This document shows, piece by piece, positions 533-17,543 of a stretch of DNA of 18,604 bases. The stretch's first letter is position 1. The number at the start of each line of letters is the position of its first letter. Both the position numbers and the translations under genes were made by a program. The stretch is from positions 1 to 18,604 of the forward strand of contig JBNKNM010000104.1 of NCBI GenBank assembly GCA_050293845.1, written 5' to 3'. The notes beneath the pieces are model-generated. The model searched no databases and was not told where the DNA came from. It saw nothing but the letters and a program-made list of their open reading frames with translations. This DNA comes from Pseudobacteriovorax sp. (GTDB lineage: Bacteria; Bdellovibrionota_B; Oligoflexia; Oligoflexales; Oligoflexaceae).

Positions 533-1693
533 CTATAGTTGTAGTCCTAACCTTAAAGTATAAAATGACTGGTATAAACGTTTAGCGACCCACCCATATT
601 CACTATACAAATATCCACGATAAAACTCGCCCTCTAGAGATATATGAAATTCTTTAGCTTCCTGACCTTGGTATTGAACACCTAAAATGGTTAGAGAACT
701 ATTGTCATTAAGAGATTGATAAGCTCTAATAATGGGAGACCAAGGACTATTTATATGAGCAATCAAATTACAATACGCAAGATCGCGGCTTAACCATTGG
801 CTAGCTCCCCAAACAAAGCTATCTTCAGTACCTGGTTTTTTATGATCATAGTAATCATAACGATTGCTAGTGGTAATTGTTTCTCTACCTTGGTCGATAT
901 TGATTAGGTGATTCAGAGATTTCTTTGCAGTTAGTCCATGAGCATTGCGAATATACTCAAGATTTAGTGATAAAGGGATATTGTGAAATCCAATACGACT
1001 GCCTAGTAAACCGTCACTATAGTATCTATTATTTCTACCGCTATGATGAATATTGTATTCTAGATAGAGTACCATAAAGTCGAAGGGAGTTGAACTTAGA
1101 TTCTGACCTAAAAAATTTTGTCCTATCATGGCACGACTCTGTAACTTTTCACCTTCATAGTTAATTAGAAAATATGGTAGTATATGTTCTCGATCAGACT
1201 CATATATAGTTAATATACCAAGGGATAGTTCATCATTAACAAATCTTGATAGTTTAATAAGTTCAGATCCTTGATCAATAGTGAAAGGACCTTGTTCGTT
1301 CCGCATGGCTGCTCTTACAGCTTGCGAAGGATTCGTTGAGATACCAGAACCCATTCGAAAGGAATAACGCCCTATAATTAAACTCAAATTATCAGTTTCA
1401 TAGTTGAGAAATCCCTCTATTAGATCAGCATCACAGTAGTCTGTAGACTCGAAATCAATACGTGAAGCACATGTACCTCGGGTATTAACTTCACCTTGCC
1501 AGCTATCAATACTAATAACCGTCTTAAGCTGTAGTCCTATGGTATGCAGGCTTCTAGCTCTATCTTGCATTGTAGTAGTCCAATAACTACTAGTTGTATC
1601 TACAGATGGATAGATATCCATTGCAAGATCTTCTGCTAAACCTCGGATTGAGTACAAAATCAGAAAACTTAAAAAAACTATTCTGATTGTCAT
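533..1693 (-). CDS. Putative outer-membrane beta-barrel protein of the export module
   Basis: It has a Sec signal peptide (MTIRIVFLSFLILYSIRGLA|ED), many alternating aromatic/hydrophobic strands and a C-terminal amphipathic strand FYTLRLGLQL. It lies directly after the ABC/LolA-like genes. Confidence 0.65.
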   Translation of the reverse strand: MTIRIVFLSFLILYSIRGLAEDLAMDIYPSVDTTSSYWTTTMQDRARSLHTIGLQLKTVISIDSWQGEVNTRGTCASRIDFESTDYCDADLIEGFLNYETDNLSLIIGRYSFRMGSGISTNPSQAVRAAMRNEQGPFTIDQGSELIKLSRFVNDELSLGILTIYESDREHILPYFLINYEGEKLQSRAMIGQNFLGQNLSSTPFDFMVLYLEYNIHHSGRNNRYYSDGLLGSRIGFHNIPLSLNLEYIRNAHGLTAKKSLNHLINIDQGRETITTSNRYDYYDHKKPGTEDSFVWGASQWLSRDLAYCNLIAHINSPWSPIIRAYQSLNDNSSLTILGVQYQGQEAKEFHISLEGEFYRGYLYSEYGWVAKRLYQSFYTLRLGLQL

Positions 1694-3676
1694 CTATAGA
1701 TGATCCTTAGTGATAAGTTTAATTGCTCGAGCCAGTTTAGAGCGAGAAAAAAAGCTTTTTGGTCGGCTATCAGTATTTTTCACCCCAAGGAAACTCACCT
1801 TAGTTTGTTTTTTGTCGTTAATGGCATCTATTACTACAAGGTCGTCGATAATTTTGTCTTGGTCTGTGTATAGTGGTATTCCGCGTTTAATCATTTTTCC
1901 CGAAAGGGCGAAATATTGAATTTCTTGTAAACGTTGTTTTTTGATACTGTAGCTCAGATTGATTGCTCCATAACTGGCGTCTTTGCTGACACCTTTTAAC
2001 TTGATAATATGAAATTTACTGTCTGAAAAATATTCCACTATTTGGTAATCTATGCCATTAAATCTAACATCTAAAACATCTCCAATTGATGCTTCGCCAA
2101 CCAGTCTTTGAGTTGGAGAAATTCTTAAAGGCAAGCGGCTTCCTTCTTTTTGAATCCAAACACCCTTAGTAGTCCTTAGAACGGCCATCCGCTGACCTCT
2201 AGGTTCAGAGATAGCAACTGCAATTTTGTCGTAACCTTGAGAAAAAGAGCGATAGATAACACGATTTTTTTCCTTACCATCAACCGAGTGAAGAAATTCA
2301 ACATCTGCTAAGAACGAATTGTTCTTAGGATAAGGAAACTGTTCGTTAATGGTTGTCAGTAAGGTTTGACCCTGACTGTTGTTTGTTTGGCTTTTACCCT
2401 GACTGATACTTGGCAGGAGGACAAAACCTAAAACGGCTGTTTTTAGTAATAAATCTATGATTTTATGACGACTAGCGGAACGTACTGGAAATATACTTGC
2501 TAGGGCTGAGCTGAATATAGCGACTATCATAACGATGGAGACTCCCTTCAAATCAATAAAAAGTTTAAGATTATAGCCTTTGCTTGCTCCAGGTGGGGGA
2601 GGCATAGGAATACCGCCAATTAAGTCGATGATTCCAGCAATTGATAAAGCAATTGCAACACCAACAGTGGCTCCTAGAATGGCAAGTATGAAGGTTTCAT
2701 GGACAAACAGAGAACTAATAAAGCTTCTAAAGATGCCAATAGAACGAAGAATACCAATCTCATCATGACGCTCCATGATTGACATGTACAGGGTGTTTGA
2801 CATAGCTAATAGAGAAACCAGAAGCAGGATGCTAAGGAAAATCATAAAAAGCCTATCGTTGAGGTTTTTAACCCCTTGGTAAAAATCAGCAACTTGATAC
2901 CAAGGTTTTGCACTGTAGCCTTGATATTGGCTCATAATTAATGACAGATGATCCATGACCTCATCCGTGTCATCAGTCTTGTAAAGAGAAAGAGCTAAGT
3001 AATCGGCCTCCTTAGATTGAAGAGATTCTATAGCGGTGTTAAATGGAATGATAAGTCGGACTGCCTCCGCTTCCTTCGAACGTGACTCCAGAAGTCCTAA
3101 TATAGAAACATCAATGGCATTCATACGACCATCGTCTGTAGATACTAGTAGGGAAGCATATTCACCTATCTTAACATCTAAACGTTCCGCCATCCGTTTA
3201 CCGATTACAACGCCGTAGGGTTCTTCTTCAAGAATATTCTCACCTATATTGACTGGTGACCAACTGCTAAGGGATATTTGCCCTTCTGGGCCGACCCCTT
3301 CGGCAACGAAGACCGTACTGCTTTCACCTGTGCCAATGACTCCACTAAACTTTCGTTTGAGTGATGATCCTTCGATAAAAGGTTCCAGATTTGGATCAGC
3401 CAAAATCTTTCTTTCAATATCCTGAAGGGTTTTGATCGAGCTTCGATTTTTTTCTGGTGTACTGGAGCTGAACCATGATGATTGTGCAATTTGAACGTGA
3501 CCGTTCCCAGAACGAGAAAAATTTTCGCTTAGGCCCCAATAGGTGTATTGCATATAGCCATAAAAAATAAGAGAACCGAGGACACTTACACAAATAGAAA
3601 GAATCGTTATGATGCTTCGTTTTGGAGAACGGAGAAGATTTAGCCAAGCCATTTTAAGAAGAAATTTATAGATCAT
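1694..3676 (-). CDS. ABC permease (MacB/LolE/FtsX-type) fused to a C-terminal LolA-like 'outer membrane lipoprotein-sorting' domain
   Basis: N-terminus KMAWLNLLRSPKRS plus a TM helix, a periplasmic domain, ERHDEIGILRSIG and PMPPPPG mark the permease (about aa 1-410). The C-terminal ~230 aa carry RISPTQRLVGEASIGD and YFALSGKMIK, typical of the LolA-like sorting family. Confidence 0.8.
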   Translation of the reverse strand: MIYKFLLKMAWLNLLRSPKRSIITILSICVSVLGSLIFYGYMQYTYWGLSENFSRSGNGHVQIAQSSWFSSSTPEKNRSSIKTLQDIERKILADPNLEPFIEGSSLKRKFSGVIGTGESSTVFVAEGVGPEGQISLSSWSPVNIGENILEEEPYGVVIGKRMAERLDVKIGEYASLLVSTDDGRMNAIDVSILGLLESRSKEAEAVRLIIPFNTAIESLQSKEADYLALSLYKTDDTDEVMDHLSLIMSQYQGYSAKPWYQVADFYQGVKNLNDRLFMIFLSILLLVSLLAMSNTLYMSIMERHDEIGILRSIGIFRSFISSLFVHETFILAILGATVGVAIALSIAGIIDLIGGIPMPPPPGASKGYNLKLFIDLKGVSIVMIVAIFSSALASIFPVRSASRHKIIDLLLKTAVLGFVLLPSISQGKSQTNNSQGQTLLTTINEQFPYPKNNSFLADVEFLHSVDGKEKNRVIYRSFSQGYDKIAVAISEPRGQRMAVLRTTKGVWIQKEGSRLPLRISPTQRLVGEASIGDVLDVRFNGIDYQIVEYFSDSKFHIIKLKGVSKDASYGAINLSYSIKKQRLQEIQYFALSGKMIKRGIPLYTDQDKIIDDLVVIDAINDKKQTKVSFLGVKNTDSRPKSFFSRSKLARAIKLITKDHL

Positions 3677-4347
3677 AACTTGCCCTCCAATTGCCCATCG
3701 ATCATTCTTACTATACGGTGAGATCGTTGCGCAACATCCTGATCATGGGAAGATATAATAGCCATAATGTTTTGTTCATCGACAAGCTCCTGAAAAAGAT
3801 CCAGAACTGCTGTGGACGTTTTTGAATCCAAATTCGCAGTGGGTTCATCAGCAAATACTATTCGTGGTTTGTTCACCAGAGATCTAGCTATCGCAACCCT
3901 TTGCCTTTGTCCGCCACTAAGTTGGCTAATACGTCTTTTTTTAAACTCATTTAGACCAACACGATCCAATAGATGGGAAGCGTAATCTCGACTTGATTTG
4001 AGGTTACGACTTAAATATACCGCTGGAAGGGTAACATTCTCCATAACACTGAGTGTGGGAATCAGATGGTAAGACTGAAAAATAAAACCAAAGCATGAAA
4101 GTCTAAAGCGGCTTTTTGAATTTTCGTCTAAGTTATCAATCCGGTCTCCTTTGTAGTATATCTGTCCTGATTCGATAGGGTCGATTAGACCAAGACAGTG
4201 CAGGAGTGTGGACTTTCCTGAACCGCTTGGCCCCATTAAGGCTATCAATCCAGATTCATCGAAATGCGATGAAATTCCCTTCAATGCTTGAAAACTTTTT
4301 TCACCCAAATTATAGGATTTTTTTAGATTCTTAATCAAAAGTTCCAT
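3673..4347 (-). CDS. ABC transporter ATP-binding protein (LolD/MacB-like)
   Basis: Walker A GPSGSGKST, Q-loop GFIFQSYHL, signature LSGGQRQRVAIAR, Walker B FADEPTANLD and H-loop SHD. Confidence 0.95.
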   Translation of the reverse strand: MELLIKNLKKSYNLGEKSFQALKGISSHFDESGLIALMGPSGSGKSTLLHCLGLIDPIESGQIYYKGDRIDNLDENSKSRFRLSCFGFIFQSYHLIPTLSVMENVTLPAVYLSRNLKSSRDYASHLLDRVGLNEFKKRRISQLSGGQRQRVAIARSLVNKPRIVFADEPTANLDSKTSTAVLDLFQELVDEQNIMAIISSHDQDVAQRSHRIVRMIDGQLEGKL

Positions 4348-4350
4348 AGT

Positions 4351-4920
4351 TTACCTATATAACCGATCTTTAGATGATTTTAAGGATTTATCAACTTGAT
4401 TTAATAGTTCCTTGAGTTTTGGATCTTGACTTAGCTCAGCTGACAGTGCTTCAGCTTGCTTTAGGCTTTCTTTTCCCCTAGTATTTTCGTTGATCATTGT
4501 TTTAGGAAGAAAAGAATAAGTTTTTACGAGGTTCTTTAAGCTTAGTAAATAGGAAATTCTATCGGAGCTTCTCTTAGTTTTACTAACACTTCGTTCTAAT
4601 AGAGATTTTGACTTCTTAAAATTTTTGGCCTGTTCTTTTTCTGATTGAACAAATACATTTTGCATACTTAACATTACTCCTAGATAGCTTTGAAATAAGA
4701 CGCAACCAGAATTTTTATATGAAGTTCTCAGTTCTGAGATGTACTTATGGATTAGATCTAGGCTAGATTTTGGGCTTTTTTGTTGAAAGATATCGCTGCT
4801 ATTTTTTGCTAAATCCTGTTCCAAAATGTCCGGCTTGGGGCAAGTTTTGGAAATTCCGTAGCTTGACGCTGTCGAAAACGCAAAATAAAGAATAAAGGAA
4901 TGAATTACTCTAGAAACCAT
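4351..4920 (-). CDS. Hypothetical exported, mainly alpha-helical basic protein
   Basis: Strong RBS AAGGAGG, an N-terminal signal-like segment (MVSRVIHSFILYFAFSTASSYG) and Lys/Ser/Leu-rich amphipathic helices. No family recognised. Confidence 0.6.
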   Translation of the reverse strand: MVSRVIHSFILYFAFSTASSYGISKTCPKPDILEQDLAKNSSDIFQQKSPKSSLDLIHKYISELRTSYKNSGCVLFQSYLGVMLSMQNVFVQSEKEQAKNFKKSKSLLERSVSKTKRSSDRISYLLSLKNLVKTYSFLPKTMINENTRGKESLKQAEALSAELSQDPKLKELLNQVDKSLKSSKDRLYR

Positions 4921-4933: not shown

Positions 4934-6283
4934 CTATTTATTACTTAAATTTAATAGATTGATTTCTTTAACAACCTTCCGAAATAAAATCAAAACGGTG
5001 ATAGCAAATCCAAAATTCATACCGACCCATAATCCTCTGACTCCCATGTTAAGCATAAATGCGAAGACAAACTGGCTTAGCCCACCAAACAAACCATAGC
5101 CAATAAAGGCTTGATAAAGAGGAGCACGTGTTTGCCCGATACCTCTGAGAATCGCTGCGAGAACGATTATAAGACTTTGAAAAAGACACAAGATCCCTGC
5201 ATGGATCATAATAAAAGGAACCATATTTCGTACTTCATTAGAGTCAATAGTCCTTTGGTAAAATAAATTTACAACGTCGAAGGGATAAAGAGAAAACAGG
5301 ATTACAAGAAAAAGAGAAAAACCAAGTGTTATAACTAAAGCCGCTAGGCAGTTTTTACGAGCTCCCACAAAGTTTTCTTGGGACCAAAGTATACTCATCT
5401 TTTGAACTATAGCCTGCGACACACCAAGTGCAACCAGTAGCCCAATACTTATCCAAAGGAGGGCAATGGATTGGATTGACGTAAATTGGGGCCAAAATTT
5501 ACTAATAATTAACAGCGATAGGAGGATTGCGAAGTTTTCAATAAGAATTACGCCACTGATAGGCCAACCAAGTGCAATAATCTTTTGAAGTTGATCAAAG
5601 GAAATAGCTTGAACAATAGTTTTCGGCATTGGTAAAGCGAATTTAGTGCGAAAAGCAAAAGGTAGGGCTAAAAAAAGTACTAAAGTGTTAGCTGCAGCCA
5701 CTGCGAGTAGAATGGTCTGAGTTTTTTCTAATGAGTTCAACTGATTTAATGAGATAATGTAGTAACATAGGGCTACACCAGATAGGGAACCCATGGAGAA
5801 CAGCATGGATAATAGTCCTGCTCGTTCGTGCAGGACGAGATGAATCTTAATGGGAGTTAAGAGCAAGGTGGGAATGATAAGAACGGCTATACAAGGAGCA
5901 AGCTCCTTAGCTAAGTAGATAATTTTGGGATCAATACCTATAGCTTGCAAAATGTGACCTGAAAAGAACAGAATTCCAGATAAAACGAGCGCTAAAAATA
6001 AGGCAAGGCCAATTCCATTAGCAATACTTTTTTCATATTGCTTTTGATCTTTTCGACCAAAATCTCTCCCCCCAAAGAAGAAGAGGGCTTGCATCATCCC
6101 TGTTCCACCTAGGATAGCGGCAAAGCCCAATTTATCTAACAGACCGAACGCGCTGTAAGTATCCAAAGCTCCAATAAGTCTATGGATAATAAATCCCAGG
6201 AAAAACGGAGCAAGTTGGGCAAAGGTCAGCCACATAGATTGTATGCCTAGGGAATAAACATATTTAACGCCAGAAAGAACCAT
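4934..6283 (-). CDS. MATE family efflux transporter
   Basis: About 12 hydrophobic segments with MATE-like motifs LGWPISG, AILRGIGQT and MGVRGLWVG. The start is probably ATG 6283, preceded by AGGTG; the ORF track uses GTG 6292. Confidence 0.85.
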   Translation of the reverse strand: MVLSGVKYVYSLGIQSMWLTFAQLAPFFLGFIIHRLIGALDTYSAFGLLDKLGFAAILGGTGMMQALFFFGGRDFGRKDQKQYEKSIANGIGLALFLALVLSGILFFSGHILQAIGIDPKIIYLAKELAPCIAVLIIPTLLLTPIKIHLVLHERAGLLSMLFSMGSLSGVALCYYIISLNQLNSLEKTQTILLAVAAANTLVLFLALPFAFRTKFALPMPKTIVQAISFDQLQKIIALGWPISGVILIENFAILLSLLIISKFWPQFTSIQSIALLWISIGLLVALGVSQAIVQKMSILWSQENFVGARKNCLAALVITLGFSLFLVILFSLYPFDVVNLFYQRTIDSNEVRNMVPFIMIHAGILCLFQSLIIVLAAILRGIGQTRAPLYQAFIGYGLFGGLSQFVFAFMLNMGVRGLWVGMNFGFAITVLILFRKVVKEINLLNLSNK

Positions 6284-6292
6284 GTTTTGCAC

Positions 6293-11199: not shown

Positions 11200-11200
11200 A

Positions 11201-11482: not shown

Positions 11483-11492
11483 AAATTTCTCC

Positions 11493-12509
11493 TTATAGTT
11501 TTGGAAAAAAAAGAGCACCCGCGAAATTACCGTTTAAGCTAACGCTACAAAATAATAATCCGTATCCTCTCCATCGATTTGGATTAGTTTTTAATTGTTC
11601 TAGGACTTCATGTACCATGACAGGAACATCCATACTAGCAAAGAAACCTAATTGGGTTGGACCAATAGCTCCTATCTCTAAACCTAAATCCCAAGCCACA
11701 TGGTGTGACATAACTGTGGAAGGGCTCGAGATAAAGAGTACTGTTTTAGACAGATTTTCGATATTCATTGAGGTGAGGCAATTCCCGATGGCTGACTGGA
11801 AAAAAGCTCTGGTCGCGGTCTGATTCCACTCAATATTACCATTCTCTAAAAATATAAAAGGCTCATAACTTTCATGGTAAAGACCCTTGAGTTCTAACAG
11901 AACGTTTTTTGATCCATGGTTAATCTTAAGAGCACAAGCGCCATCTGATAGTGGATCTAATCCTGCTATAGATCTAGGGTACGGTATTGGCCATTTTTCA
12001 GCAGAACAGAAGACAGAAAAGCCTTCGTTCTCACGAGTACCTTGCATAGTTTGATTTAATATTTTTAGACTTTGAAAAAAGCTAATATTTCCCGTTTGTG
12101 AAACAGCAAAATGAGGAATATTAGACCAATTTAATTCAGCGGCCAAACGTGCTACATTTGAAGTATAAATAGCTTCTTCAATTGAACAATGGCTATAGAT
12201 GAATATGTTTGCCAGTTCATCATTCGAGCAAAGATTCTTTAGACATTCTAAGGCTATTTCGAATTGACTTTGGTTTGGAGCATAACTAAAGGTTCCTCGA
12301 GTCAAGGCATTCGTTGGAGAATTAAGAACAGACTCAATATCCAAAATAGGCATGTGTGAAAGCACCATGGCTACCACTTTCGTGTAGTGATCAGGCTTAT
12401 CTGAGTTAAGATAATCAAGACAAGTCCGATTCCACTTTGCGATATTGCCAATAGTTTTCGGAATGACTAAAGCCGAATCTTCAATTCCTATGACAAACTT
12501 TTGATTCAC
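11493..12509 (-). CDS. FabH/KAS III-fold protein lacking the catalytic Cys (KS4)
   Basis: It aligns by eye with KS1/KS2: IFIYSH, HFAVSQTGNIS (Cys->Asn), SAEKW, LSDGACAL. GTG start in a GTGA overlap with the ACP stop. Confidence 0.7.
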   Translation of the reverse strand: MNQKFVIGIEDSALVIPKTIGNIAKWNRTCLDYLNSDKPDHYTKVVAMVLSHMPILDIESVLNSPTNALTRGTFSYAPNQSQFEIALECLKNLCSNDELANIFIYSHCSIEEAIYTSNVARLAAELNWSNIPHFAVSQTGNISFFQSLKILNQTMQGTRENEGFSVFCSAEKWPIPYPRSIAGLDPLSDGACALKINHGSKNVLLELKGLYHESYEPFIFLENGNIEWNQTATRAFFQSAIGNCLTSMNIENLSKTVLFISSPSTVMSHHVAWDLGLEIGAIGPTQLGFFASMDVPVMVHEVLEQLKTNPNRWRGYGLLFCSVSLNGNFAGALFFPKL

Positions 12510-12769
12510 AATATCTTTCCTTTGACAAATTTTTTCAATGTTCCAAAATTAGTGAATAGATCCGCTGAAACATCTTCAATTTCAATTGTAAATTGAAACA
12601 CTTCTTCAATTTGCGTTAAAACTTCTACGACATTGATCGATACTAAACCAATTTCAAACAGATTAGTCTCATCATTTATGCTAATTGTGTCATCTACACC
12701 CAATACTTTGTACAAGATTTGCTTTATTTTCACACTAACGTTATCTTGAATCACTGCGTTTGTTAACAT
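12506..12769 (-). CDS. Acyl/peptidyl carrier protein
   Basis: Acidic 87-aa protein with DETNLFEIGLVSINVVEVLTQIEEVFQFTI (the Ser of GLVS is the phosphopantetheine site). Strong RBS AGGAGGT. Confidence 0.88.
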   Translation of the reverse strand: MLTNAVIQDNVSVKIKQILYKVLGVDDTISINDETNLFEIGLVSINVVEVLTQIEEVFQFTIEIEDVSADLFTNFGTLKKFVKGKIL

Positions 12770-12779: not shown

Positions 12780-14015
12780 CTAAAACGAATCTACTTTTAA
12801 TTCATTCTTAAAACTATTATGGATGTTCATAATTCGATTAAACGTCTCTTTGTAGGTGCTTCCTGATACAATAAAGAATGCTGAGAAATCTGTGCAATGA
12901 GATGCTGGAAGTGCAGTTTCTCCAACAGAAATTGAAATTTCATGACGATGTATCCATTCATGATTTAAGCTCTTTGGATCTGGTAAAGATTTAACAGTAC
13001 CGAAGAGGTTATTGCGAATACCAATCAGACCACAAGATTTTTTGTCTTGACTACTAGCAACATTATCTTGGGACCAAGGTCGATCCAATTCAATCGTTAA
13101 TAGTTCTCGGTTCAAATTAACTCCCGTTGATTCTTCTATCATGGCTACTATACCGCCTCCACCTGATCGCGCAGCAACTTCGCAAAAAATGACTTCGTCT
13201 GCTGAATTTAGGAAAACCTCAAGGTGAATCACGCCTTTATTCAATGAAAGCTTTTGAATAACTTCATCAGCAACCGACTCTAACTTATCAATGATCTTTG
13301 AATCGGTTTCTATGACTGATACAAAGGGACTTCCTTCGTTAAAATCGATGTTACCCATTTCAGGAATGTAAGGTGCCAAGGAATGAAACACAGATTCACC
13401 TCCTTGAACTAGGGAATTAATATGGTACAAAACCCCAGAGACATACTCTTCGAGTTGAAATTCTTCTTGACACTCTTCTTTTGCAAACCATTTATCAATT
13501 TGATTTTCGGTAAATAATATAGCTACCCCTTTTGATCCTTGACTACTACGAGGTTTAACGACTATCTTCCCATATCTTTTGAGGAAGTCCTTAGCATCTG
13601 CGATATTAAATTTTTCTTTAAATCTGGGAATACGAAAAGTTTTTGTATTCTGAAGGCAATGCTTCATGTAAACCTTATCGCGAAATTTTCTTGCAGTGTC
13701 CTGATTTGTACCAGGAATACCTAAAGATTCTCTAATATTTGAGGCTAGCTCAACATCCTCTTCAGAAAATGCAGCGACGGCTGTAATAGGCAATTCCCTA
13801 TGAATCTTTAGTGCTAAATTCAGAATTTCGGAATGTCGACGCATGCGGACAACATGAATTTTTTCATTTTGATCTAGATCTTTAAAATTATCTTTATTCT
13901 TTTCGTCGGTAAATACAGTAACAGCAGCCTTCAAATCGGAGAACACAGCTTTACCATTAGAAAGATAATAATTACGTTTTTCTCCTCTAACGAGGATCAG
14001 AATGTGATCTGACAT
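12780..14015 (-). CDS. ATP-grasp ligase (amino-acid ligase type)
   Basis: Motifs FRDKVYMK, VVKPRSSQGSKGV, LEEYVSG, HLEVF and FCEVAARSGGG. Confidence 0.9.
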   Translation of the reverse strand: MSDHILILVRGEKRNYYLSNGKAVFSDLKAAVTVFTDEKNKDNFKDLDQNEKIHVVRMRRHSEILNLALKIHRELPITAVAAFSEEDVELASNIRESLGIPGTNQDTARKFRDKVYMKHCLQNTKTFRIPRFKEKFNIADAKDFLKRYGKIVVKPRSSQGSKGVAILFTENQIDKWFAKEECQEEFQLEEYVSGVLYHINSLVQGGESVFHSLAPYIPEMGNIDFNEGSPFVSVIETDSKIIDKLESVADEVIQKLSLNKGVIHLEVFLNSADEVIFCEVAARSGGGGIVAMIEESTGVNLNRELLTIELDRPWSQDNVASSQDKKSCGLIGIRNNLFGTVKSLPDPKSLNHEWIHRHEISISVGETALPASHCTDFSAFFIVSGSTYKETFNRIMNIHNSFKNELKVDSF

Positions 14016-14018
14016 GAT

Positions 14019-14924
14019 TTATGTCCTTTTCTTATAGTTAACGATGATGGCATATCCATGGCCAGATAAGCTCAAAGTCCAAATAAGAGCTTGCCCACCT
14101 TTTTTAAGATATTTTGAGCCTTCCTCGATGGAAGCAATCAATGCAGCGGTTCCTTCATGAAAATTTCGGGGAGGTGCAATCTTTATAGATGATATTTCTT
14201 TATATGCAAGCTTAAGTAATTTAGATCCGTAAGGATCGCCAATTATTAAATCAGGTACAACATCCATTTTTATTAATTGTGTACCTAACCATCTGCCAAA
14301 TGTATGGAATAATGAAGACATATCATTGTTGTCACCATAACGATCATCAAAGGTGTATATATCTTTAATATTAATGAAACTTTCAGAGTGTCGTTCCATT
14401 GATCCTGCAAAAAGAAATCCACAAAAATCTCGAAATGGTGTTTCGTCACTCATTTCTATATCGAAAGGGGATAGCCATTGATCAGCACAGCTTAACAAAT
14501 ATGGACTCTGATTCTGGTTGGTTAGTCCTAATAGCGATAAACATGCCCCAATACCCGCGGTCCCAACTTGATCTATAGCGATACTATCCTCTTTAAGGTT
14601 AAGTTGATTATGGACCCTTAGGCATCTTGAGCTTAAAAAGCTGTCATTAATGGTGCATTGACTATGTATATGCGCTAATTTATCTGAAAGATTGAATTGA
14701 CTTTTAAATCTATCGAGCAAAATCTCCAGTTCTGAACCGATATCATGGTTCTTCGATCCTTTTAATTGTTCAACCTCCAATGGTTGAGATAATTTTTGGG
14801 GCAGGGAATGGGTACCTGCAGCTTCTAGCAGATAAGGGTATCTTAAGGAAAAGTTACCATCATGACACTCCTGTGGTCTTCGAATTTGTAGATCAATTAT
14901 ATCTATATTTAGCTCAATTCTCAT
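14019..14924 (-). CDS. Divergent FabH/KAS III-fold protein lacking the catalytic Cys (KS3)
   Basis: SIAIDQVGTAG aligns to the SQxxC motif of KS1/KS2 (Cys->Thr). LSCADQW and the C-terminal LIWTLSLSG resemble KS4. Start moved to ATG 14924, preceded by GAGGA. Confidence 0.6.
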   Translation of the reverse strand: MRIELNIDIIDLQIRRPQECHDGNFSLRYPYLLEAAGTHSLPQKLSQPLEVEQLKGSKNHDIGSELEILLDRFKSQFNLSDKLAHIHSQCTINDSFLSSRCLRVHNQLNLKEDSIAIDQVGTAGIGACLSLLGLTNQNQSPYLLSCADQWLSPFDIEMSDETPFRDFCGFLFAGSMERHSESFINIKDIYTFDDRYGDNNDMSSLFHTFGRWLGTQLIKMDVVPDLIIGDPYGSKLLKLAYKEISSIKIAPPRNFHEGTAALIASIEEGSKYLKKGGQALIWTLSLSGHGYAIIVNYKKRT

Positions 14925-15891
14925 TGATATCTTCCTCAATCACTTCTTTTGGATACGAAAGAAGGCAGCCTTGAATTCCTAAATTAGATTGTCCAAAGGA
15001 CAATATTGGTTTACCTTGGGCAAGTTGAGTAAATCCTTGATCGACAAGGTTAATTATGAAGTCATTTGAGCAAGCGTGTCCTCGTCTCCGAATATTGTCG
15101 CTAAATAAATTTTCTGGCGTAAATGAAAGAGACTTTACAATCAATTTCCAAAGCGAAAGGTCCGCATTAATAGGTAAAATTTGCGGGATAGTCTCTGGCT
15201 CAAGACTGCTTTGTTCGAGACACTTCTTGATGAGATCACGACTATGTCGCCAACATGTCTGAGCAATTATTTGTGAATTACCTGGTATTTCAGGCCCTCC
15301 GTGAAGTCGGCTGAAATAGTAAAACAGAGGCATATCTAGCCAACATTTTAAAGAATCACGACCAAGGAGTAGAGCTGCCGCACCATCGCTTTGAATACCT
15401 CCATCCTGGCGAAGTCTATGGTCAGCATCTCCAAACACCCGGTCAGAAGTAAGTATAAGCGCATAGGGCTGGGAACTCGTTTTTTGGAGATAGTTCATCG
15501 ATAGTTCCACAGCTTTAAACACCGAAGCACATGCCAACTGACTTACTGAAAAATCGATCTTTGGTTTGAATTCAAACCGATTTTTAATTTTTGTGAGAAG
15601 GGACTCAGGTGGGGCAGGTATACTGAAACCTTGTGTTCGTGCATGAACTATAATACCAATATCTTCGACTTGGATAAATGCTGGAAGTTTTTTCCAAAGT
15701 CGTAAAATAGATTCGCTAACAAGTTCAAAATCAGACAAATTTGAGTTTTCATAAAAGTAGCGACAACCATTTTTTAATAACGCATCGATCCTATCTTTGG
15801 GAACTTTTTTCTCTATTCCCCACTGAGTCACATCTCGTGCTTCTCCTGGCAAATAGTACGCAGCATCGATTATTCCTAAATTTGTACGCAT
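14914..15891 (-). CDS. FabH/KAS III-like enzyme with catalytic Cys (KS2)
   Basis: Motifs GIIDAAYYLPG, FSVSQLACAS (Cys121), LILTSD, QSDGAAALLL and RGHACSND. Confidence 0.85.
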   Translation of the reverse strand: MRTNLGIIDAAYYLPGEARDVTQWGIEKKVPKDRIDALLKNGCRYFYENSNLSDFELVSESILRLWKKLPAFIQVEDIGIIVHARTQGFSIPAPPESLLTKIKNRFEFKPKIDFSVSQLACASVFKAVELSMNYLQKTSSQPYALILTSDRVFGDADHRLRQDGGIQSDGAAALLLGRDSLKCWLDMPLFYYFSRLHGGPEIPGNSQIIAQTCWRHSRDLIKKCLEQSSLEPETIPQILPINADLSLWKLIVKSLSFTPENLFSDNIRRRGHACSNDFIINLVDQGFTQLAQGKPILSFGQSNLGIQGCLLSYPKEVIEEDINEN

Positions 15892-15906
15892 ACTAAAGTA
15901 TTCCTT

Positions 15907-16479
15907 CTATTTCTTCTTTGCAAAAGTTTTACCATTTAGACTTTGAATATTAGGGTAAATGGCGGCAAATTCTTGCTTTGTCACATCATATAGAATTCGA
16001 TCACATCTTTTATTTTCTAGAACATGAGCACTACGCAAGCGTCCTGTAGAGCGAAATCCACATTTATCATGAACTCTATGAGAGAGTATATTTGGTTCAG
16101 CAACCCAGGTGCTTATAACTTCTCTATCGAAATCGAGAAATCCCGTAGCAATGGTCCTTAAAAAGGCAGACACGGTGAGATTACGTCCTCCTCCTTTTTC
16201 ACCACGCAAGCCCCAGACCTCACCTAGTCCCATTTCATGGGTATACCCATTAAGACTCATTAAACCTACTAGACGGCTTTTTTCAGGTCCGTAAAGGAAT
16301 ACCTTATTGTTTGGATTACAGAAAAGAATATGTAGTTCTAGGTCAGTGAGGTTTTGTTTTCCTAGTCCCATATCTAACCACTTCACTATACTTTCACGTC
16401 TAAACCATTCACAAACTTTCTTAGTATGAGTGTTGCTATATGGAATAAGTACAGCTTCATTAAGATTTTCAATTGTCAT
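15907..16479 (-). CDS. GNAT family N-acyltransferase (RimJ/RimL-like)
   Basis: Motifs LVGLMSL, WVAEPNILSHRVHDKCGFRSTGRLR and DRILY match the RimJ/RimL-type C-terminal pattern. ATGA overlap with KS1. Confidence 0.8.
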   Translation of the reverse strand: MTIENLNEAVLIPYSNTHTKKVCEWFRRESIVKWLDMGLGKQNLTDLELHILFCNPNNKVFLYGPEKSRLVGLMSLNGYTHEMGLGEVWGLRGEKGGGRNLTVSAFLRTIATGFLDFDREVISTWVAEPNILSHRVHDKCGFRSTGRLRSAHVLENKRCDRILYDVTKQEFAAIYPNIQSLNGKTFAKKK

Positions 16480-17429
16480 TGTGCAACCCCAAGCCTATTC
16501 TCCAAGTGGGAACTAAGTATAAAGGAACCAAAACATCCCCCAATACCACTAGAAAATATAAGATGGTATCCCTCACGTTTATGGGCATTTGAATTTTTAA
16601 TATTAATAGCGACATCTGAACCTAAAACATGTCCTATTGTCCGAAGACCTTGATCATGAAGTTTAGAAACAGGAATTCCAAGAGCATTAAGTACAATAGA
16701 CCAAGAAGGTTTATGGGTATTCTGAGGGCATACTGTATCGACGTTCTCGCCTTTTATACCAACTTGCCGAAGACTTTTCCGCATTATGGAAGTGCAATTC
16801 CATAAATAATTGGGATTATCTTCGTAGCTTCCATCATCCATGATGCCTTTTAAATTTCTTTTATCATTGTATGTATTTATCCCGGATATAAGATTTCTGG
16901 ATCTCACGCTTTTGCCAATTAAGATGGCGGAAGTCCCATCACTTTGTATTCCACTATCATTTATTCGTCTCAAGTGTTCTAAGAGAATATTATCAATCGT
17001 CACAACAATGGCCACTTTCTCTGCAGATTCTGCATTCATAAGGTAATTCAAGGTATTAATGGCATGAATAGGTGAGACACAATTTTGTTGGCTAATAGAA
17101 AACCCAGCAGTGTCGTATAGACTAAATTTTTTCTTAATAGTGTCAACTATCGAAAATGGTGGGGGCAGTATGTTTGCCTGTGACGTATGACAATAGATTA
17201 GATAAGCAACATCTTTTCGATTAATATTATTTCTATTTATAACATCATGGACACATTCTAATCCTAGATCAAATATTTCCTCAGTATTCGAGCGATAGTA
17301 ACGTTCTGAAGTATTGGTTCGCAACTGCTGGACCATCTGATTGTCAATTCTATGCTCTATACAGTAGTCGTCTGTAAGACAAAGCTCTGAACCTAATCGA
17401 TATTCAATATCAATGATACCAATTCCCAT
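16476..17429 (-). CDS. FabH/KAS III-like enzyme with catalytic Cys (KS1)
   Basis: Motifs GIGIIDIEY, LIYCHT, FSISQQNCVS (Cys117), QSDGTSAILI, IGHVLGSD and SSGIGGCFG. RBS GAAGGT-N5-ATG. Confidence 0.85.
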   Translation of the reverse strand: MGIGIIDIEYRLGSELCLTDDYCIEHRIDNQMVQQLRTNTSERYYRSNTEEIFDLGLECVHDVINRNNINRKDVAYLIYCHTSQANILPPPFSIVDTIKKKFSLYDTAGFSISQQNCVSPIHAINTLNYLMNAESAEKVAIVVTIDNILLEHLRRINDSGIQSDGTSAILIGKSVRSRNLISGINTYNDKRNLKGIMDDGSYEDNPNYLWNCTSIMRKSLRQVGIKGENVDTVCPQNTHKPSWSIVLNALGIPVSKLHDQGLRTIGHVLGSDVAINIKNSNAHKREGYHLIFSSGIGGCFGSFILSSHLENRLGVAQ

Positions 17430-17443
17430 GATGCACCTTCATC

Positions 17444-17494
17444 TCATTGATTGAGTTTATATTTCTTTGCATGCCAAAAACTATTATAGATCAT
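17444..17494 (-). CDS. Candidate small ORF MIYNSFWHAKKYKLNQ (16 aa; 17 aa if ATG 17497 is used); possible precursor or leader peptide
   Basis: The minus strand reads GAAGGT-AGATG-ATG ATC TAT AAT AGT TTT TGG CAT GCA AAG AAA TAT AAA CTC AAT CAA TGA. The RBS and 5-nt spacing are identical to those of KS1. It lies between the sigma54 promoter and the KS1 RBS. Confidence 0.45.
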   Translation of the reverse strand: MIYNSFWHAKKYKLNQ

Positions 17495-17527
17495 CATCTA
17501 CCTTCTTTGTTTTTGCATCGTTACTAA

Positions 17528-17543
17528 AGCAAAGACTGTGCCG
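17528..17543 (-). promoter_or_regulatory. Sigma54 (RpoN) -24/-12 promoter
   Basis: Minus strand CGGCACAGTCTTTGCT gives GG-N10-GC, close to the consensus TGGCAC-N5-TTGCW. It points into the operon, with a predicted +1 near 17517. Confidence 0.8.

What the first reader, a model, noticed from the sequence alone, without database searches (positions are those of the whole stretch)
533..17543. 17-gene, sigma54-driven, NRPS/PKS-independent carrier-protein BGC with an unusual enzyme set
Seen: 17 co-oriented genes with overlaps or gaps of no more than ~20 bp (ATGA/GTGA overlaps at 16476, 12506, 9069, 7507, 3673). They encode 4 KAS III-fold proteins, GNAT, ATP-grasp, ACP, pentapeptide-repeat protein, 2 ACAD subunits, adenylation enzyme, PLP decarboxylase and two export systems. 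Known: the parts echo thiotemplated non-NRPS logic, as in butirosin AHBA (BtrI/J/K/O), closthioamide (carrier proteins, ATP-grasp, PLP decarboxylase) and the vicenistatin starter (VinL/N/O). Inference: the cluster makes an exported amide or lipo-amide containing a decarboxylated, possibly desaturated beta/gamma-amino acyl unit, coupled by KAS III-type transferases. I do not recognise this combination as a characterised cluster.
Basis: partly seen in the sequence, partly recalled or inferred. Interest (0 to 1): 0.88.

Follow-up and report, generated by a model that had tools for sequence, protein, structure and literature searches.

The report
Rare afc-like beta-alanine peptide operon
This is a real, rare 17-gene operon in a little-studied Pseudobacteriovorax-type bacterium that most likely builds an exported amide or lipopeptide-like compound from carrier-bound aspartate-derived beta-alanine, using the same unusual chemistry as the recently solved Burkholderia antifungal AFC-BC11 but with a different enzyme set and an unknown product.

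Summary
There are 17 co-oriented minus-strand genes (533-17429) with the stated ATGA/GTGA overlaps, and the domain calls are right, including four KAS III-fold proteins and two ACAD-like proteins. A consensus sigma-54 promoter lies below an activator gene. All 17 genes keep their order in two related genomes at 34-79% identity. Looser versions occur in metagenomes.

There a VinN-type adenylation enzyme loads Asp through its side chain onto one carrier protein. A PLP decarboxylase makes beta-alanyl-S-carrier, an ACAD is proposed to desaturate it, and KAS III-like Cys/His/Asp transferases move the chain.

The window shares several afc parts:
- the A enzyme (41% to AfcQ, same pocket Arg)
- a KAS III-like enzyme (34% to AfcO)
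- a carrier protein and a decarboxylase
- an ABC/FtsX/LolA-like exporter

It lacks the fatty acyl-AMP ligase and the fatty-acid tailoring genes. It adds a GNAT, an ATP-grasp ligase, a pentapeptide-repeat protein, a MATE pump and catalytically dead KAS/ACAD partners.

Verdict: a new variant of a known kind, product unknown. The scan reached the same afc link earlier on other DNA (e1-5198498).

The parts
17529..17542 (-). Sigma-54-type -24/-12 promoter element, GGCACagtctTTGC
   Evidence: It is the only match in the window, with 0.06 expected by chance. The sequence was read. It lies about 100 nt upstream of the g01 start codon. rpoN is present in the genome. A degenerate TGGtct-N5-TTGCT sits at a similar place in L009. 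None was found in L010.
17926..18603 (-). Sigma-54 enhancer-binding activator. Only the C-terminal 225 aa are present because the contig ends here.
   Evidence: Pfam gives Sigma54_activat E 3.6e-14, HTH_8 and AAA_lid_14. NCBIfam gives NtrC/PrdR-type hits. A 35%-identical homologue lies at the far end of the L009 cluster on the opposite strand.
16476..17429 (-). g01, KAS III-like acyltransferase 1 with a Cys117/His267/Asp272 triad
   Evidence: Pfam and NCBIfam give weak FabH hits. Cys117, His267 and Asp272 are invariant in the family alignment. HMMER alignment to a solved FabH places them at the Cys112 and Asn274 positions. It is 22% identical to AfcO.
15907..16479 (-). g02, GNAT (Acetyltransf_3-type) N-acyltransferase
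   Evidence: Pfam gives E 0.0037, below the cut-off. Homologues are conserved in L009 and L010 (62-64%), in L022 and L023 (35-42%) and in the small variant (26-31%).
14914..15891 (-). g03, KAS III-like acyltransferase 2 with a Cys/His/Asp triad. It is the closest match to AfcO.
   Evidence: BLASTP to g01 gives E 2e-26. It is 34.4% identical to AfcO over 314 aa, E 7e-56. The triad columns are shown.
14019..14939 (-). g04, KAS III-fold protein without the Cys. It has Thr at the nucleophile position and keeps the His, which resembles AfcR.
   Evidence: hhalign to the g01 family gives 72%, E 3e-5. The AF2 model (pLDDT 59) hits only FabH, KAS III-like and type III PKS chains among the listed Foldseek rows.
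12780..14015 (-). g05, ATP-grasp amide ligase related to L-amino-acid ligases
   Evidence: Pfam gives ATP-grasp_4 E 5.6e-8. The only PDB hits are L-amino acid ligases 3vot and 4wd3, E about 1e-10. NCBIfam gives DdaF and PRK07206 below cut-off. Homologues at 36-37% identity occur only in L022 and L023 among the 12 metagenome loci.
12506..12769 (-). g06, stand-alone acyl/peptidyl carrier protein
   Evidence: Pfam gives PP-binding E 9.4e-10. The attachment Ser (Ser44, GLVSIN) aligns with the GIDSLN Ser of AfcK.
11493..12509 (-). g07, degenerate KAS III-fold protein. It has Asn or Ser at the Cys position and Phe or Tyr at the His position, so it is probably non-catalytic.
   Evidence: hhalign to the g01 family gives 97.8%, E 7e-13 over 291 columns.
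11201..11518 (-). g08, small pentapeptide-repeat protein. About 93 aa are conserved from Met13, and no membrane segment is evident.
   Evidence: Pfam gives Pentapeptide_4 E 5.5e-10 and Pentapeptide E 1.8e-9. It is conserved in L009 and L010 (59-78%) and in L022 and L023 (34-49%).
10018..11232 (-). g09, catalytic acyl-CoA/ACP dehydrogenase (short-chain ACAD-like) with Glu388 in the ILEGT motif
   Evidence: Pfam finds three ACAD domains. PDB gives SCAD/MCAD at 120-139 bits and prolyl-ACP dehydrogenase 4irn at 101 bits. Glu388 is invariant in 6 of 6 family members.
9069..9998 (-). g10, ACAD-like protein with only the C-terminal domain recognisable. Leu300 sits at the catalytic-Glu position.
   Evidence: Pfam gives Acyl-CoA_dh_1 E 5.8e-14. 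The register against g09 comes from a weak hhalign match. Leu is present in 5 of 5 members.
7507..9072 (-). g11, stand-alone NRPS-type adenylation enzyme of the VinN/AfcQ and TIGR03098 type. It probably activates the Asp side-chain carboxylate.
   Evidence: TIGR03098 scores 595.3 bits against a cut-off of 592.35. PDB gives LgrA A domain 286 bits and VinN 3wvn 169 bits. It is 41% identical to AfcQ, E 8e-106. It shares the LMYGLTEAFRSTY motif, with Arg311 aligned to the AfcQ pocket Arg.
6293..7510 (-). g12, PLP-dependent decarboxylase of the BtrK/TIGR03099 type that acts on a carrier-bound amino acid
   Evidence: TIGR03099 scores 463.4 bits against a cut-off of 478.45. The best PDB match is BtrK, 236 bits, E 7e-69. 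It is 25% identical to AfcP and 44% to the S. meliloti pSymB enzyme. The PLP Lys in the AIKAN motif is conserved.
4934..6292 (-). g13, MATE efflux transporter
   Evidence: Pfam gives MatE E 1.1e-14. NCBIfam gives matE and NorM below cut-off. It is conserved in L009, L010, L022 and L023.
4351..4920 (-). g14, 189-aa protein with an N-terminal hydrophobic signal-like segment. Its function is unknown.
   Evidence: No Pfam or NCBIfam hit. The Atlas search gave no usable lead. It is conserved only in L009 and L010, at 42-47%. hmmsearch found no match in the afc, L022 or L023 loci.
3673..4347 (-). g15, ABC ATPase of the LolD/MacB/DevA type
   Evidence: Pfam gives ABC_tran E 3e-32. NCBIfam gives LolD 222 bits and DevA 173 bits, both below cut-off. 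It is 37.5% identical to the ABC part fused to the afcA-position gene in L035.
1694..3676 (-). g16, MacB/LolCE-type permease (MacB_PCD + FtsX) fused to a C-terminal LolA-like domain
   Evidence: Pfam gives FtsX, MacB_PCD and LolA_like. It is 29% identical to the afc FtsX-like permease. The LolA-like part weakly matches the separate LolA-like genes of L023 (E 3e-5) and afc (E 7e-4) (annotation).
533..1693 (-). g17, 386-aa secreted all-beta protein, probably an outer-membrane barrel that completes the exporter
   Evidence: No family hit. The AF2 model is of low confidence (pLDDT 41) but shows an N-terminal helix followed by about 20 long strands. It is conserved in L009 and L010 at 45-48%. Unassigned genes of 439 and 470 aa sit in the same position after the LolA-like gene in afc and L023.

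Best explanation
The 17 genes form one operon for a thiotemplated assembly line without condensation domains, of the afc (AFC-BC11) type. It is probably switched on by a sigma-54 activator. All steps below are inferred from homology.

1. The stand-alone A enzyme g11 adenylates L-Asp at its side-chain carboxylate and loads it on the single carrier protein g06.
2. The BtrK-like PLP decarboxylase g12 removes the alpha-carboxylate while the residue is tethered, giving beta-alanyl-S-g06. As shown for AfcQ, g11 may repeat the loading on the freed amine to make an oligo-beta-alanyl chain.
3. The free amine is capped. No fatty acyl-AMP ligase is present, so the cap is added by the GNAT g02 or by one of the Cys/His/Asp KAS III-like transferases, using an acyl-CoA or acyl-ACP.
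4. The ACAD g09, probably paired with its catalytically dead relative g10, dehydrogenates the N-acyl-beta-alanyl thioester to dehydro-beta-alanine, an enamide.
5. The two active KAS III-like enzymes g01 and g03 take the chain as a Cys thioester and pass it to an amine or other nucleophile. They may be partnered by the Cys-less g04 and g07. The ATP-grasp ligase g05 supplies or attaches an amino acid.
6. The product leaves through the MATE pump g13 and through a MacB-type ABC system (g15, g16 with a built-in LolA-like domain, g14, and the g17 barrel). This exporter type suggests a hydrophobic, envelope-associated product, as in afc.

The pentapeptide-repeat protein g08 has no assigned step.
For: What the sequence and searches show:
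- Gene order, overlaps and domain content are as described.
- All 17 of 17 genes are syntenic in G002 (44-79% identity) and G001 (34-72%).
- g11 reaches the TIGR03098 cut-off. It is 41% identical to AfcQ. It shares the LMYGLTEAFRSTY motif, whose Arg aligns with the AfcQ Arg that the paper says turns Asp round for side-chain activation. VinN is among its solved relatives.
- g12's best solved relative is BtrK, which decarboxylates a carrier-bound amino acid.
- g06 keeps the attachment Ser.
- g01 and g03 have Cys, His and Asp in the columns where AfcL and AfcO have the Cys/His/Asp that the paper names. g04 has Thr plus His, like AfcR.
- g09 keeps the catalytic Glu in 6 of 6 homologues. g10 has Leu there in 5 of 5.
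- The afc locus also holds an ABC ATPase, an FtsX permease, a LolA-like protein and an unassigned protein in series, as does L023.
- In 11 of 12 metagenome loci found with the g01 family, a g11-type A gene lies nearby. In 8 of the 12 a g12-type decarboxylase is seen as well.

What rests on the literature (PMC12186527, sections 6 and 13 read):
- AfcQ/AfcK/AfcP were shown in vitro to make (beta-Ala)n-S-AfcK.
- AfcL was shown to carry the chain on Cys and pass it to Lys-CoA.
- AfcE is proposed, not shown, to make dehydro-beta-alanine.
- AFC-BC11 is membrane-vesicle associated (PMC13614206, abstract).
Against: - No step has been tested for this cluster and the product is unknown.
- By tblastn at E<=1e-3, 7 of the 17 proteins match the afc locus, and the g09 match is a marginal 47-residue stretch. 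g06, g02, g05, g08, g10, g13, g14 and g17 give no match. An HMM of the g06 family reaches AfcK only at E 0.02.
- g12 is only 25% identical to AfcP. It is closer to BtrK, which acts on Glu, and to the polysaccharide-locus enzymes, so Glu to GABA is not excluded.
- g09 is not an AfcE orthologue.
- No fatty acyl-AMP ligase is in the window. g11 is the only AMP-binding gene on this contig, while 14 others lie elsewhere in the genome. Lipidation is therefore a guess from the exporter type.
- An earlier follow-up on a related 11-gene operon read that one as lipid-free.
- The pairing of g09 with g10, and of the active KAS proteins with g04 or g07, was not tested.
- The strict sigma-54 motif is not conserved in L009 or L010.
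Confidence: 0.6

Rival explanations
1. The chemistry is the same, but the tethered unit is glutamate-derived GABA, as in the butirosin side chain (BtrI/BtrJ/BtrK). The ATP-grasp g05 plays a BtrJ-like loading or gamma-glutamyl protecting role. The ACAD then makes a 4-aminocrotonyl unit.
For: BtrK is by far the best solved relative of g12, at 236 bits against 91 bits for AfcP by tblastn. An ATP-grasp gene sits next to the carrier-protein gene.
Against: g11 shares 41% identity with the Asp-activating AfcQ and carries the pocket Arg. g05's only solved relatives are L-amino-acid ligases, at E about 1e-10. Its likeness to BtrJ could not be tested because no BtrJ sequence was at hand. None of the 17 proteins hit a BtrH-type or luciferase-like (BtrO-type) Pfam family.
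Confidence: 0.15
2. The cassette decorates a cell-envelope macromolecule, such as a polysaccharide, lipoprotein or lipid, with an amino-acyl group rather than making a free metabolite. This would resemble the exosortase-A-associated ligase/decarboxylase/carrier sets found in polysaccharide loci.
For: g11 reaches the TIGR03098 cut-off and g12 nearly reaches TIGR03099. Homologues at 42-44% identity in S. meliloti pSymB sit with a carrier protein among glycosyltransferases. The Lol-like exporter with a LolA-like domain points to the envelope.
Against: The window has no glycosyltransferase, polymerase or flippase gene. No exosortase was found in this 96%-complete genome. The window does have a MATE pump, four KAS III-like proteins, an ACAD pair and an ATP-grasp ligase, which fit metabolite assembly and match afc.
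Confidence: 0.12
3. The KAS III-like proteins act as true condensing enzymes. They extend a beta-amino-acyl starter with malonyl or fatty acyl units to give a polyketide-like amino-lipid, pyridone or resorcinol/pyrone-type product.
For: The window has four thiolase-fold proteins. Two of them lack the Cys and could serve as partner subunits. An ACAD could supply an enoyl partner.
Against: g01 and g03 have His and Asp where condensing FabH has Asn274 and a Ser five residues further on. The FabH His244 position is Gln in g01 and Ile in g03. This matches the AfcL/AfcO acyltransferase pattern described in the paper. There is no ketoreductase, dehydratase, malonyl transferase or cyclase.
Confidence: 0.1

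Closest known systems
afc biosynthetic gene cluster for AFC-BC11, Burkholderia cepacia complex. Sources: Zhong et al., JACS 2025, PMC12186527 (sections 6 and 13 read); Tavares et al., JACS 2026, PMC13614206 (outline, abstract and passages read).
   Same: Both have a single carrier protein and a VinN-type A enzyme (g11 is 41% identical to AfcQ and shares the pocket Arg). Both have a PLP decarboxylase acting on the tethered residue. Both have several KAS III-like proteins with a Cys/His/Asp triad plus one with Thr/His (g03 is 34% identical to AfcO). Both have an ACAD-family dehydrogenase, no C domains, and an ABC ATPase + FtsX permease + LolA-like + unassigned-protein export set.
   Different: The window has no fatty acyl-AMP ligase (AfcA), no citrate synthase, O-methyltransferase, TauD or FAD-oxidoreductase tailoring set, no desaturases and no AfcM. 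Its ACAD is not an AfcE orthologue. Its decarboxylase is only 25% identical to AfcP, and its carrier protein is not detectably similar by BLAST. It adds a GNAT, an ATP-grasp ligase, a pentapeptide-repeat protein, a MATE pump, a dead ACAD partner and a fourth KAS III-fold protein. The regulators also differ: sigma-54 here, the LysR-type ShvR there. The host phylum is different.
Unnamed 'small variant' locus in a Burkholderia cenocepacia 3.2-Mb replicon (L037) and in metagenome contigs (L025, L026, L029-L031). I did not find it described in print.
   Same: It holds ACAD, carrier protein, KAS III-like x3, A enzyme (42%), decarboxylase (44%), ACAD-like partner and GNAT (31%). These are closer to the window's proteins than the afc proteins are.
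   Different: It has no ATP-grasp, pentapeptide-repeat, MATE or Lol-like exporter gene in the fetched DNA. It is followed by LuxR and LuxI genes rather than a sigma-54 system.
Butirosin AHBA side-chain pathway (BtrI/BtrJ/BtrK)
   Same: A carrier-bound amino acid is decarboxylated by a group IV PLP enzyme. BtrK is g12's best solved relative. An ATP-grasp enzyme lies next to the carrier protein.
   Different: In the window the loader is an A domain, not an ATP-grasp enzyme. No BtrO/V-type, BtrH-type or BtrG-type protein was found in Pfam. There is no aminoglycoside context. The roles of the Btr proteins are recalled, apart from the PDB molecule name seen.
Vicenistatin and fluvirucin beta-amino-acid starter cassette (VinN/VinL/VinO)
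   Same: A side-chain-activating A enzyme works with a carrier protein and a PLP decarboxylase. VinN (3wvn) hits g11 at 169 bits. The afc paper itself calls AfcQ VinN-type.
   Different: The window has no second A enzyme, no acyltransferase hand-over to a type I PKS and no PKS.
Exosortase-A-associated ligase/decarboxylase pair (NCBIfam TIGR03098 and TIGR03099)
   Same: g11 scores 595.3 against a cut-off of 592.35. g12 scores 463.4 against a cut-off of 478.45.
   Different: There is no exosortase in the genome and no polysaccharide genes in the window. The family's function is uncharacterised.

Membership tests
afc-type C-domain-free beta-alanine/dehydro-beta-alanine assembly line | VinN/AfcQ-type A enzyme with the pocket-entrance Arg that forces side-chain activation of Asp | tested here: met
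   g11 is 41% identical to AfcQ. The shared TEAFRST motif places g11 Arg311 against the AfcQ Arg (309 in strain FXe9, 311 in the paper's strain). Substrate specificity itself was not assayed.
afc-type C-domain-free beta-alanine/dehydro-beta-alanine assembly line | A single stand-alone carrier protein with the attachment Ser | tested here: met
   Pfam gives PP-binding E 9.4e-10. The Ser aligns with the AfcK Ser. It is the only carrier protein in the window.
afc-type C-domain-free beta-alanine/dehydro-beta-alanine assembly line | PLP decarboxylase acting on the carrier-bound residue | tested here: inconclusive
   A homologue is present and its best solved relative is BtrK. It is only 25% identical to AfcP. 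Activity on a tethered substrate cannot be tested with these tools.
afc-type C-domain-free beta-alanine/dehydro-beta-alanine assembly line | KAS III-like acyltransferases with a Cys/His/Asp triad | tested here: met
   g01 and g03 carry Cys, His and Asp in the AfcL/AfcO columns. g04 has Thr/His, like AfcR.
afc-type C-domain-free beta-alanine/dehydro-beta-alanine assembly line | Fatty acyl-AMP ligase (AfcA) that N-acylates the chain and sets its length | tested here: not met
   g11 is the only AMP-binding protein among the 17 and on the contig.
afc-type C-domain-free beta-alanine/dehydro-beta-alanine assembly line | Fatty-acid tailoring set (citrate synthase AfcS, O-methyltransferase AfcT, AfcF, AfcU) and desaturases (AfcC/D/N) | tested here: not met
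   None of the 17 proteins hit such families. They are present in the afc locus L035.
afc-type C-domain-free beta-alanine/dehydro-beta-alanine assembly line | AfcE/BolQ-type dehydrogenase for dehydro-beta-alanine | tested here: not met
   g09 matches the AfcE-position ACAD only marginally (E 5e-4 over 47 aa; E 0.0015). A different ACAD pair, g09/g10, is present instead.
afc-type C-domain-free beta-alanine/dehydro-beta-alanine assembly line | ABC/FtsX/LolA-like envelope export set | tested here: met
   g15 is 37.5% and g16 29% identical to the afc counterparts. The LolA-like domain matches weakly.
Sigma-54-dependent operon | A -24 GG / -12 GC element with correct spacing upstream of the first gene, an activator gene nearby, and rpoN in the genome | tested here: met
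   Conservation is only partial: degenerate in L009 and not found in L010. Transcription was not tested.
Exosortase-A-associated ligase/decarboxylase cassette (TIGR03098/TIGR03099) | Both proteins above the curated cut-offs, in a genome with exosortase A | tested here: not met
   The ligase is above its cut-off, but the decarboxylase is 15 bits below. No Exosortase_EpsH match was found in the 96.4%-complete genome.
Butirosin AHBA pathway | BtrJ-type ATP-grasp loader, BtrO/V hydroxylase, and BtrH/BtrG transfer and deprotection enzymes | tested here: not met
   None of the 17 proteins hit a BtrH-type or luciferase-like family. g05 is an ATP-grasp enzyme, but its relation to BtrJ was not tested. 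Only the BtrK-like enzyme is shared.

The most novel reading that the evidence does not exclude
The operon may make a new chemotype. This would be a short, light-sensitive enamide (dehydro-beta-alanine) oligomer capped by a GNAT and extended by an ATP-grasp ligase. The assembly machine would be built from catalytic/pseudo-enzyme pairs: KAS III with a dead KAS III, and ACAD with a dead ACAD. The conserved small pentapeptide-repeat protein would be either a DNA-mimic self-protection factor against a topoisomerase-directed product or a factor in lipid export. It would be the first natural product pathway described from the Oligoflexia/Pseudobacteriovorax lineage, with relatives in Myxococcota.
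Probability: 0.15. Interest if true: 0.8.

Novelty: new variant of a known kind. Interest (0 to 1): 0.6.

Why it matters
The afc pathway was worked out only in 2025-26. It showed that peptide bonds can be made without condensation domains, by an iterative A enzyme and by KAS III-like transferases around one carrier protein. Its enamide-rich product is a potent antifungal.

This operon shows that the same core has been recombined with other amide-forming and capping enzymes (GNAT, ATP-grasp) and with dead partner subunits. It has no fatty acyl-AMP ligase, and it sits in a phylum with no described natural products.

Relatives of the first KAS enzyme are rare. Only 6 of 1.84 billion representatives score E<=1e-85. 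They nevertheless occur in named genomes: KAS relatives in Hyalangium, and ATP-grasp relatives in Myxococcus, Tahibacter and Pseudoalteromonas piscicida. The product class should therefore be reachable in the laboratory.

The operon also gives a testable reading for the widespread but uncharacterised 'exosortase-A-associated' ligase/decarboxylase family.

Tried and rejected
- The search for related loci with the ATP-grasp protein alone found nothing in genome contigs. 39 pattern matches were seen and none was confirmed.
- With the g16 alignment it found only the G001 contig, which named the genus.
- The literature searches 'Pseudobacteriovorax + biosynthetic gene cluster' and 'exosortase + pyridoxal-dependent decarboxylase + acyl-CoA ligase' returned 0 papers.
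- The g17 AF2 model is too poor (pLDDT 41, pTM 0.35) for a fold search. Only its all-beta secondary structure is used.
- The Atlas search for g14 gave only sub-threshold TPR/FcpA leads, which I did not use.
- HMMs of the g14 and g17 families found no counterpart in the afc, L022, L023, L036 or L037 DNA. The equivalence of g17 to the unassigned afc/L023 gene therefore rests on position only.
- hhalign of the g10 family against the g09 family was weak (2% probability). The ACAD assignment of g10 rests on Pfam, and the Leu-for-Glu reading on the shared RLYE/RFYRD register.
- The sigma-70 promoter and terminator scans found no more than chance (39 against 53 expected; 16 against 11.5 expected) and were not used.
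- The four weaker phylum hits of the g01 profile (E 1e-22 to 1e-24 in G011, G016, G019 and G101) were not examined further.
- I considered a pyrrole route (prolyl-carrier dehydrogenase, 101-bit hit to 4irn). I rejected it because g09 is closer to short-chain ACADs and because the A enzyme and decarboxylase point to Asp.
- Whether g09 binds g10, or an active KAS binds g04 or g07, remains untested.
- The supplements of PMC12186527 (Tables S2, S8, S9 with gene annotations, A-domain codes and triads) were not opened. They may refine the residue comparisons.

Full report
WHAT IS THERE

The window is a whole contig (G000:C104) of a 6.68-Mb, 96%-complete draft genome. The ORF listing gives 17 consecutive minus-strand ORFs from 17429 down to 533. 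A script confirmed ATGA at 16476, 9069, 7507 and 3673 and GTGA at 12506. All other junctions are gaps of 0-19 nt or overlaps of at most 32 nt.

Pfam named 12 of the 17 products at E<=0.01:
- KAS III (g01) and GNAT (g02), both below the curated cut-offs
- ATP-grasp (g05) and carrier protein (g06)
- pentapeptide repeat (g08)
- a complete ACAD (g09) and a protein with only the ACAD C-terminal domain (g10)
- AMP-binding (g11) and an Orn/DAP/Arg-type PLP decarboxylase (g12)
- MatE (g13) and an ABC ATPase (g15)
- a MacB_PCD+FtsX permease with a C-terminal LolA_like domain (g16)

Five products had no Pfam hit: g03, g04, g07, g14 and g17.
- g03 is KAS III-like by BLASTP to g01 (E 2e-26).
- g07 is KAS III-like by profile comparison with the g01 family (97.8%, E 7e-13).
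- g04 is KAS III-like by a weaker profile match (72%). Its AF2 model has modest confidence (pLDDT 59, pTM 0.68). All listed Foldseek hits of that model are FabH, other KAS III-like enzymes or type III PKS chains at E about 1e-9.
- g17 gave a poor model (pLDDT 41) that is all-beta behind an N-terminal helix.
- g14 stays unassigned.

The 82-aa ORF at 276-524 is not conserved and is probably not a gene.

REGULATION

The only match in the window to GGCAC-N5-TTGC lies at 17529-17542 on the minus strand. Chance expectation is 0.06, and 10 of 200 shuffles had a match. It is about 100 nt upstream of the g01 ATG. It is downstream of a sigma-54 enhancer-binding protein gene that is cut by the contig end. 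The genome encodes sigma-54.

In the syntenic locus L009 a degenerate TGGtct-N5-TTGCT lies at a similar distance, and an activator homologue sits at the other end of the cluster. In L010 I found no such element. Sigma-54 control is therefore likely here but is not a conserved property of the cluster.

CONSERVATION AND RARITY

All 17 of 17 genes recur in the same order in G002 (44-79% identity) and G001 (34-72%). G001's contig is titled as a Pseudobacteriovorax sp. MAG. The G002-type proteins are named Pseudobacteriovorax antillogorgiicola in the protein collection.

A profile of the g01 family found strong matches in only 3 of 131 genomes of the phylum. Four more genomes had weak partial hits, which I did not examine.

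In 1.84 billion representative proteins the same profile found:
- 1462 hits at E<=1e-3
- 97 hits at E<=1e-30
- 6 hits at E<=1e-85

The word-indexed search with the profile gave 28 proteins at E<=1e-10, 15 of them at E<=1e-97. One of these is named Hyalangium. The ATP-grasp protein has 26 relatives at E<=1e-8, counting itself. Among them are proteins named from Myxococcus sp., Tahibacter amnicola and Pseudoalteromonas piscicida at 33-36% identity. Two g01-type and two g05-type hits share longest-contig lengths (32,020 and 236,485). This suggests they lie on the same contigs, but I could not fetch those contigs.

The metagenome scan returned 12 loci. tblastn of the window's proteins against them gave the following:
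- L022 and L023 (2 of 12) carry KAS1-GNAT-KAS2-KAS3-ATP-grasp-carrier-KAS4-MATE-pentapeptide-ACAD-ACAD-A in order.
- L023 also has ABC-FtsX-LolA_like-unassigned upstream.
- L025, L026 and L029-L031 (5 of 12) carry a smaller set without ATP-grasp, pentapeptide or MATE: ACAD, carrier, KAS, KAS, A, decarboxylase, ACAD-like, GNAT, unknown, KAS.
- L032 and L033 carry another arrangement.
- L024, L027 and L028 are short fragments.
- A g11-type A gene is present in 11 of the 12 loci.

The small set also occurs in a Burkholderia cenocepacia 3.2-Mb replicon (L037). In L031 it is followed by LuxR and LuxI genes.

THE KEY COMPARISON

NCBIfam placed g11 at the cut-off of TIGR03098 (595.3 against 592.35). 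It placed g12 just under TIGR03099 (463.4 against 478.45). These are the 'exosortase-A-associated' ligase and decarboxylase. No exosortase is found in this genome. In S. meliloti pSymB the pair sits with a carrier protein among glycosyltransferases.

Following the LuxR/LuxI-linked, high-GC small variant led me to recall the Burkholderia afc cluster. A literature search then found two recent papers.

Zhong et al. (PMC12186527; sections 6 and 13 read) report that AFC-BC11 is an N-acyl tetrapeptide with three dehydro-beta-alanines and a dehydrolysine. Their findings on its assembly are:
- The VinN-type A enzyme AfcQ activates the Asp side-chain carboxylate. A pocket-entrance Arg311 explains this.
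- AfcQ loads the sole carrier AfcK and then adds further Asp units to the freed amine.
- AfcP decarboxylates the tethered Asp.
[quoted passage not shown] - AfcO (Cys/His/Asp) is essential. AfcR has Thr/His/Glu.
- The ACAD AfcE is proposed, by analogy with BolQ of bolagladin, to make the enamides.

Tavares et al. (PMC13614206; outline, abstract and passages read) report that the compound leaves in membrane vesicles. They note afc-like clusters in Collimonas, Pseudomonas and Chromobacterium.

TESTING THE COMPARISON

An annotated afc locus was fetched from a Burkholderia sp. FXe9 replicon (L035). tblastn of the window's proteins against it gave these results:

| Window protein | afc counterpart | Identity | E-value |
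|---|---|---|---|
| g11 | AfcQ | 41% | 8e-106 |
| g03 | AfcO | 34% | 7e-56 |
| g01 | AfcO | 22% | 2e-22 |
| g12 | AfcP | 25% | 3e-22 |
| g15 | ABC part fused to the afcA-position gene | 37.5% | 7e-43 |
| g16 | FtsX permease | 29% | 3e-37 |

g09 matched only a 47-residue stretch of the AfcE-position ACAD (E 5e-4). At E<=1e-3 there was no match for the carrier, GNAT, ATP-grasp, pentapeptide, g10, MATE, g14 or g17.

Residue-level checks gave the following:
- g11, its orthologues, AfcQ, the small-variant enzyme and the S. meliloti enzyme all share LMYGLTEAFRSTY. The Arg (g11 Arg311) aligns with the AfcQ Arg, which is position 309 from the FXe9 start.
- In a MAFFT alignment, g01 and g03 have Cys, His and Asp (five residues after the His) in the same columns as AfcL and AfcO. 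g04 has Thr and His, like AfcR. g07 has Asn or Ser at the first position and Phe or Tyr at the second.
- HMMER alignment of the g01 profile to a solved FabH puts the His at FabH's Asn274 position and a Gln/His at its His244 position.
- That this Cys/His/Asp spacing marks DpsC/CerJ-type acyltransferases is recalled, not tested.
- g09 keeps the catalytic Glu (ILEGT) in 6 of 6 homologues. g10 has Leu at that place in 5 of 5.
- g12's best solved relative is BtrK, at 236 bits against at most 160 for DAP decarboxylases.
- g11's solved relatives are NRPS A domains, including VinN.
- g05's only solved relatives are L-amino-acid ligases.
- The carrier Ser and the PLP Lys are conserved.

HOW IT MOST LIKELY WORKS (all steps inferred)

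1. g11 loads Asp through its side chain on g06.
2. g12 makes beta-alanyl-S-g06. Loading may be iterative.
3. The amine is capped by the GNAT or by a KAS III-like transferase, because no fatty acyl-AMP ligase is present.
4. g09, perhaps with g10, makes the enamide.
5. g01 and g03 shuttle and release the chain to a nucleophile. The ATP-grasp ligase supplies or attaches an amino acid to it.
6. The MATE pump and the ABC/FtsX-LolA-like/g14/g17 set export the product.

The exporter type is shared with afc, where the product is a vesicle-borne lipopeptide. This is the only argument for a lipid tail. An earlier follow-up in this scan on a related 11-gene operon read that one as lipid-free. I put 0.6 on this overall reading.

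The rivals are:
- a Glu-derived GABA unit in the butirosin manner (0.15)
- decoration of an envelope polymer, as in the exosortase-type loci (0.12)
- true Claisen condensation by the KAS proteins (0.1)

COMPARISON WITH THE KNOWN, AND NOVELTY

The cluster works like the afc core but is not an afc orthologue. It fails the tests for AfcA, for the fatty-acid tailoring set and for an AfcE-type ACAD. Only about a third of its genes have afc counterparts, at 22-41% identity. It is closer to an unnamed small variant in Burkholderia and soil metagenomes.

I did not find that variant or this 17-gene form described. The supplements of the afc paper were not opened.

The new features relative to afc are:
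- the GNAT and ATP-grasp amide-forming enzymes
- the conserved small pentapeptide-repeat protein
- the dead KAS and ACAD partners
- the fused permease-LolA-like protein
- the sigma-54 setting
- the host lineage

I rate it a new variant of a known kind, with interest 0.6. The scan had reached the same afc link earlier on other DNA (e1-5198498). I saw that note only after my own search.

Noticed in passing
window 2-370 (+): This is the C-terminal fragment (122 aa) of an IS481/IS3-type transposase (rve_3, E 8e-16) that runs off the contig start. The cluster contig is thus bounded by an insertion sequence at one end and by the cut activator gene at the other.
   Followed up: no
L036 (Bacillus wiedmannii plasmid p536, 437061-465756); also 8 Bacillus mycoides plasmids: This is a distant, apparently uncharacterised cluster. 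It holds three KAS III-like genes, ACADs, a carrier protein, an adenylate-forming enzyme, an ATP-grasp enzyme, a BtrH-N-domain protein, a lysA-like decarboxylase (36% to g12) and embedded uvrB/uvrA copies.
   Followed up: partly
L037 (B. cenocepacia 3.2-Mb replicon) and L031 7238-19369: A 'small variant' of the pathway (ACAD, carrier, KAS, KAS, A, decarboxylase, ACAD-like, GNAT, unknown 400-aa protein, KAS) is followed in L031 by LuxR-type and LuxI-type genes. This suggests quorum-sensing control. I did not find it described.
   Followed up: partly
L035 10301-12769 and 22111-23700: In the Burkholderia sp. FXe9 afc locus the AMP-binding (AfcA-position) gene is annotated as one 822-aa product. 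Its C-terminal part matches the window's ABC ATPase in frame. The AfcQ-position reading frame changes near its 3' end in this record and carries no listed CDS.
   Followed up: partly
L009 versus L010: The cluster of the other-genus genome G002 (P. antillogorgiicola-type) is closer to the window than that of the same-genus genome G001. For example, the ATP-grasp protein is 63% identical against 50%, and KAS4 is 48% against 34%. This hints at lateral transfer or old divergent alleles.
   Followed up: no
window 1694-3676 (-), residues about 405-430 of g16: A short hydrophobic stretch follows the fourth FtsX helix and precedes the LolA-like domain. It could carry that domain back to the periplasm. 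In afc and L023 the LolA-like protein is a separate gene.
   Followed up: no
L034 (S. meliloti pSymB 1118781-1141941): The TIGR03098/03099 pair plus a carrier protein sits among glycosyltransferases, a polysaccharide deacetylase and glf. This fits an amino-acyl decoration of a polysaccharide.
   Followed up: no
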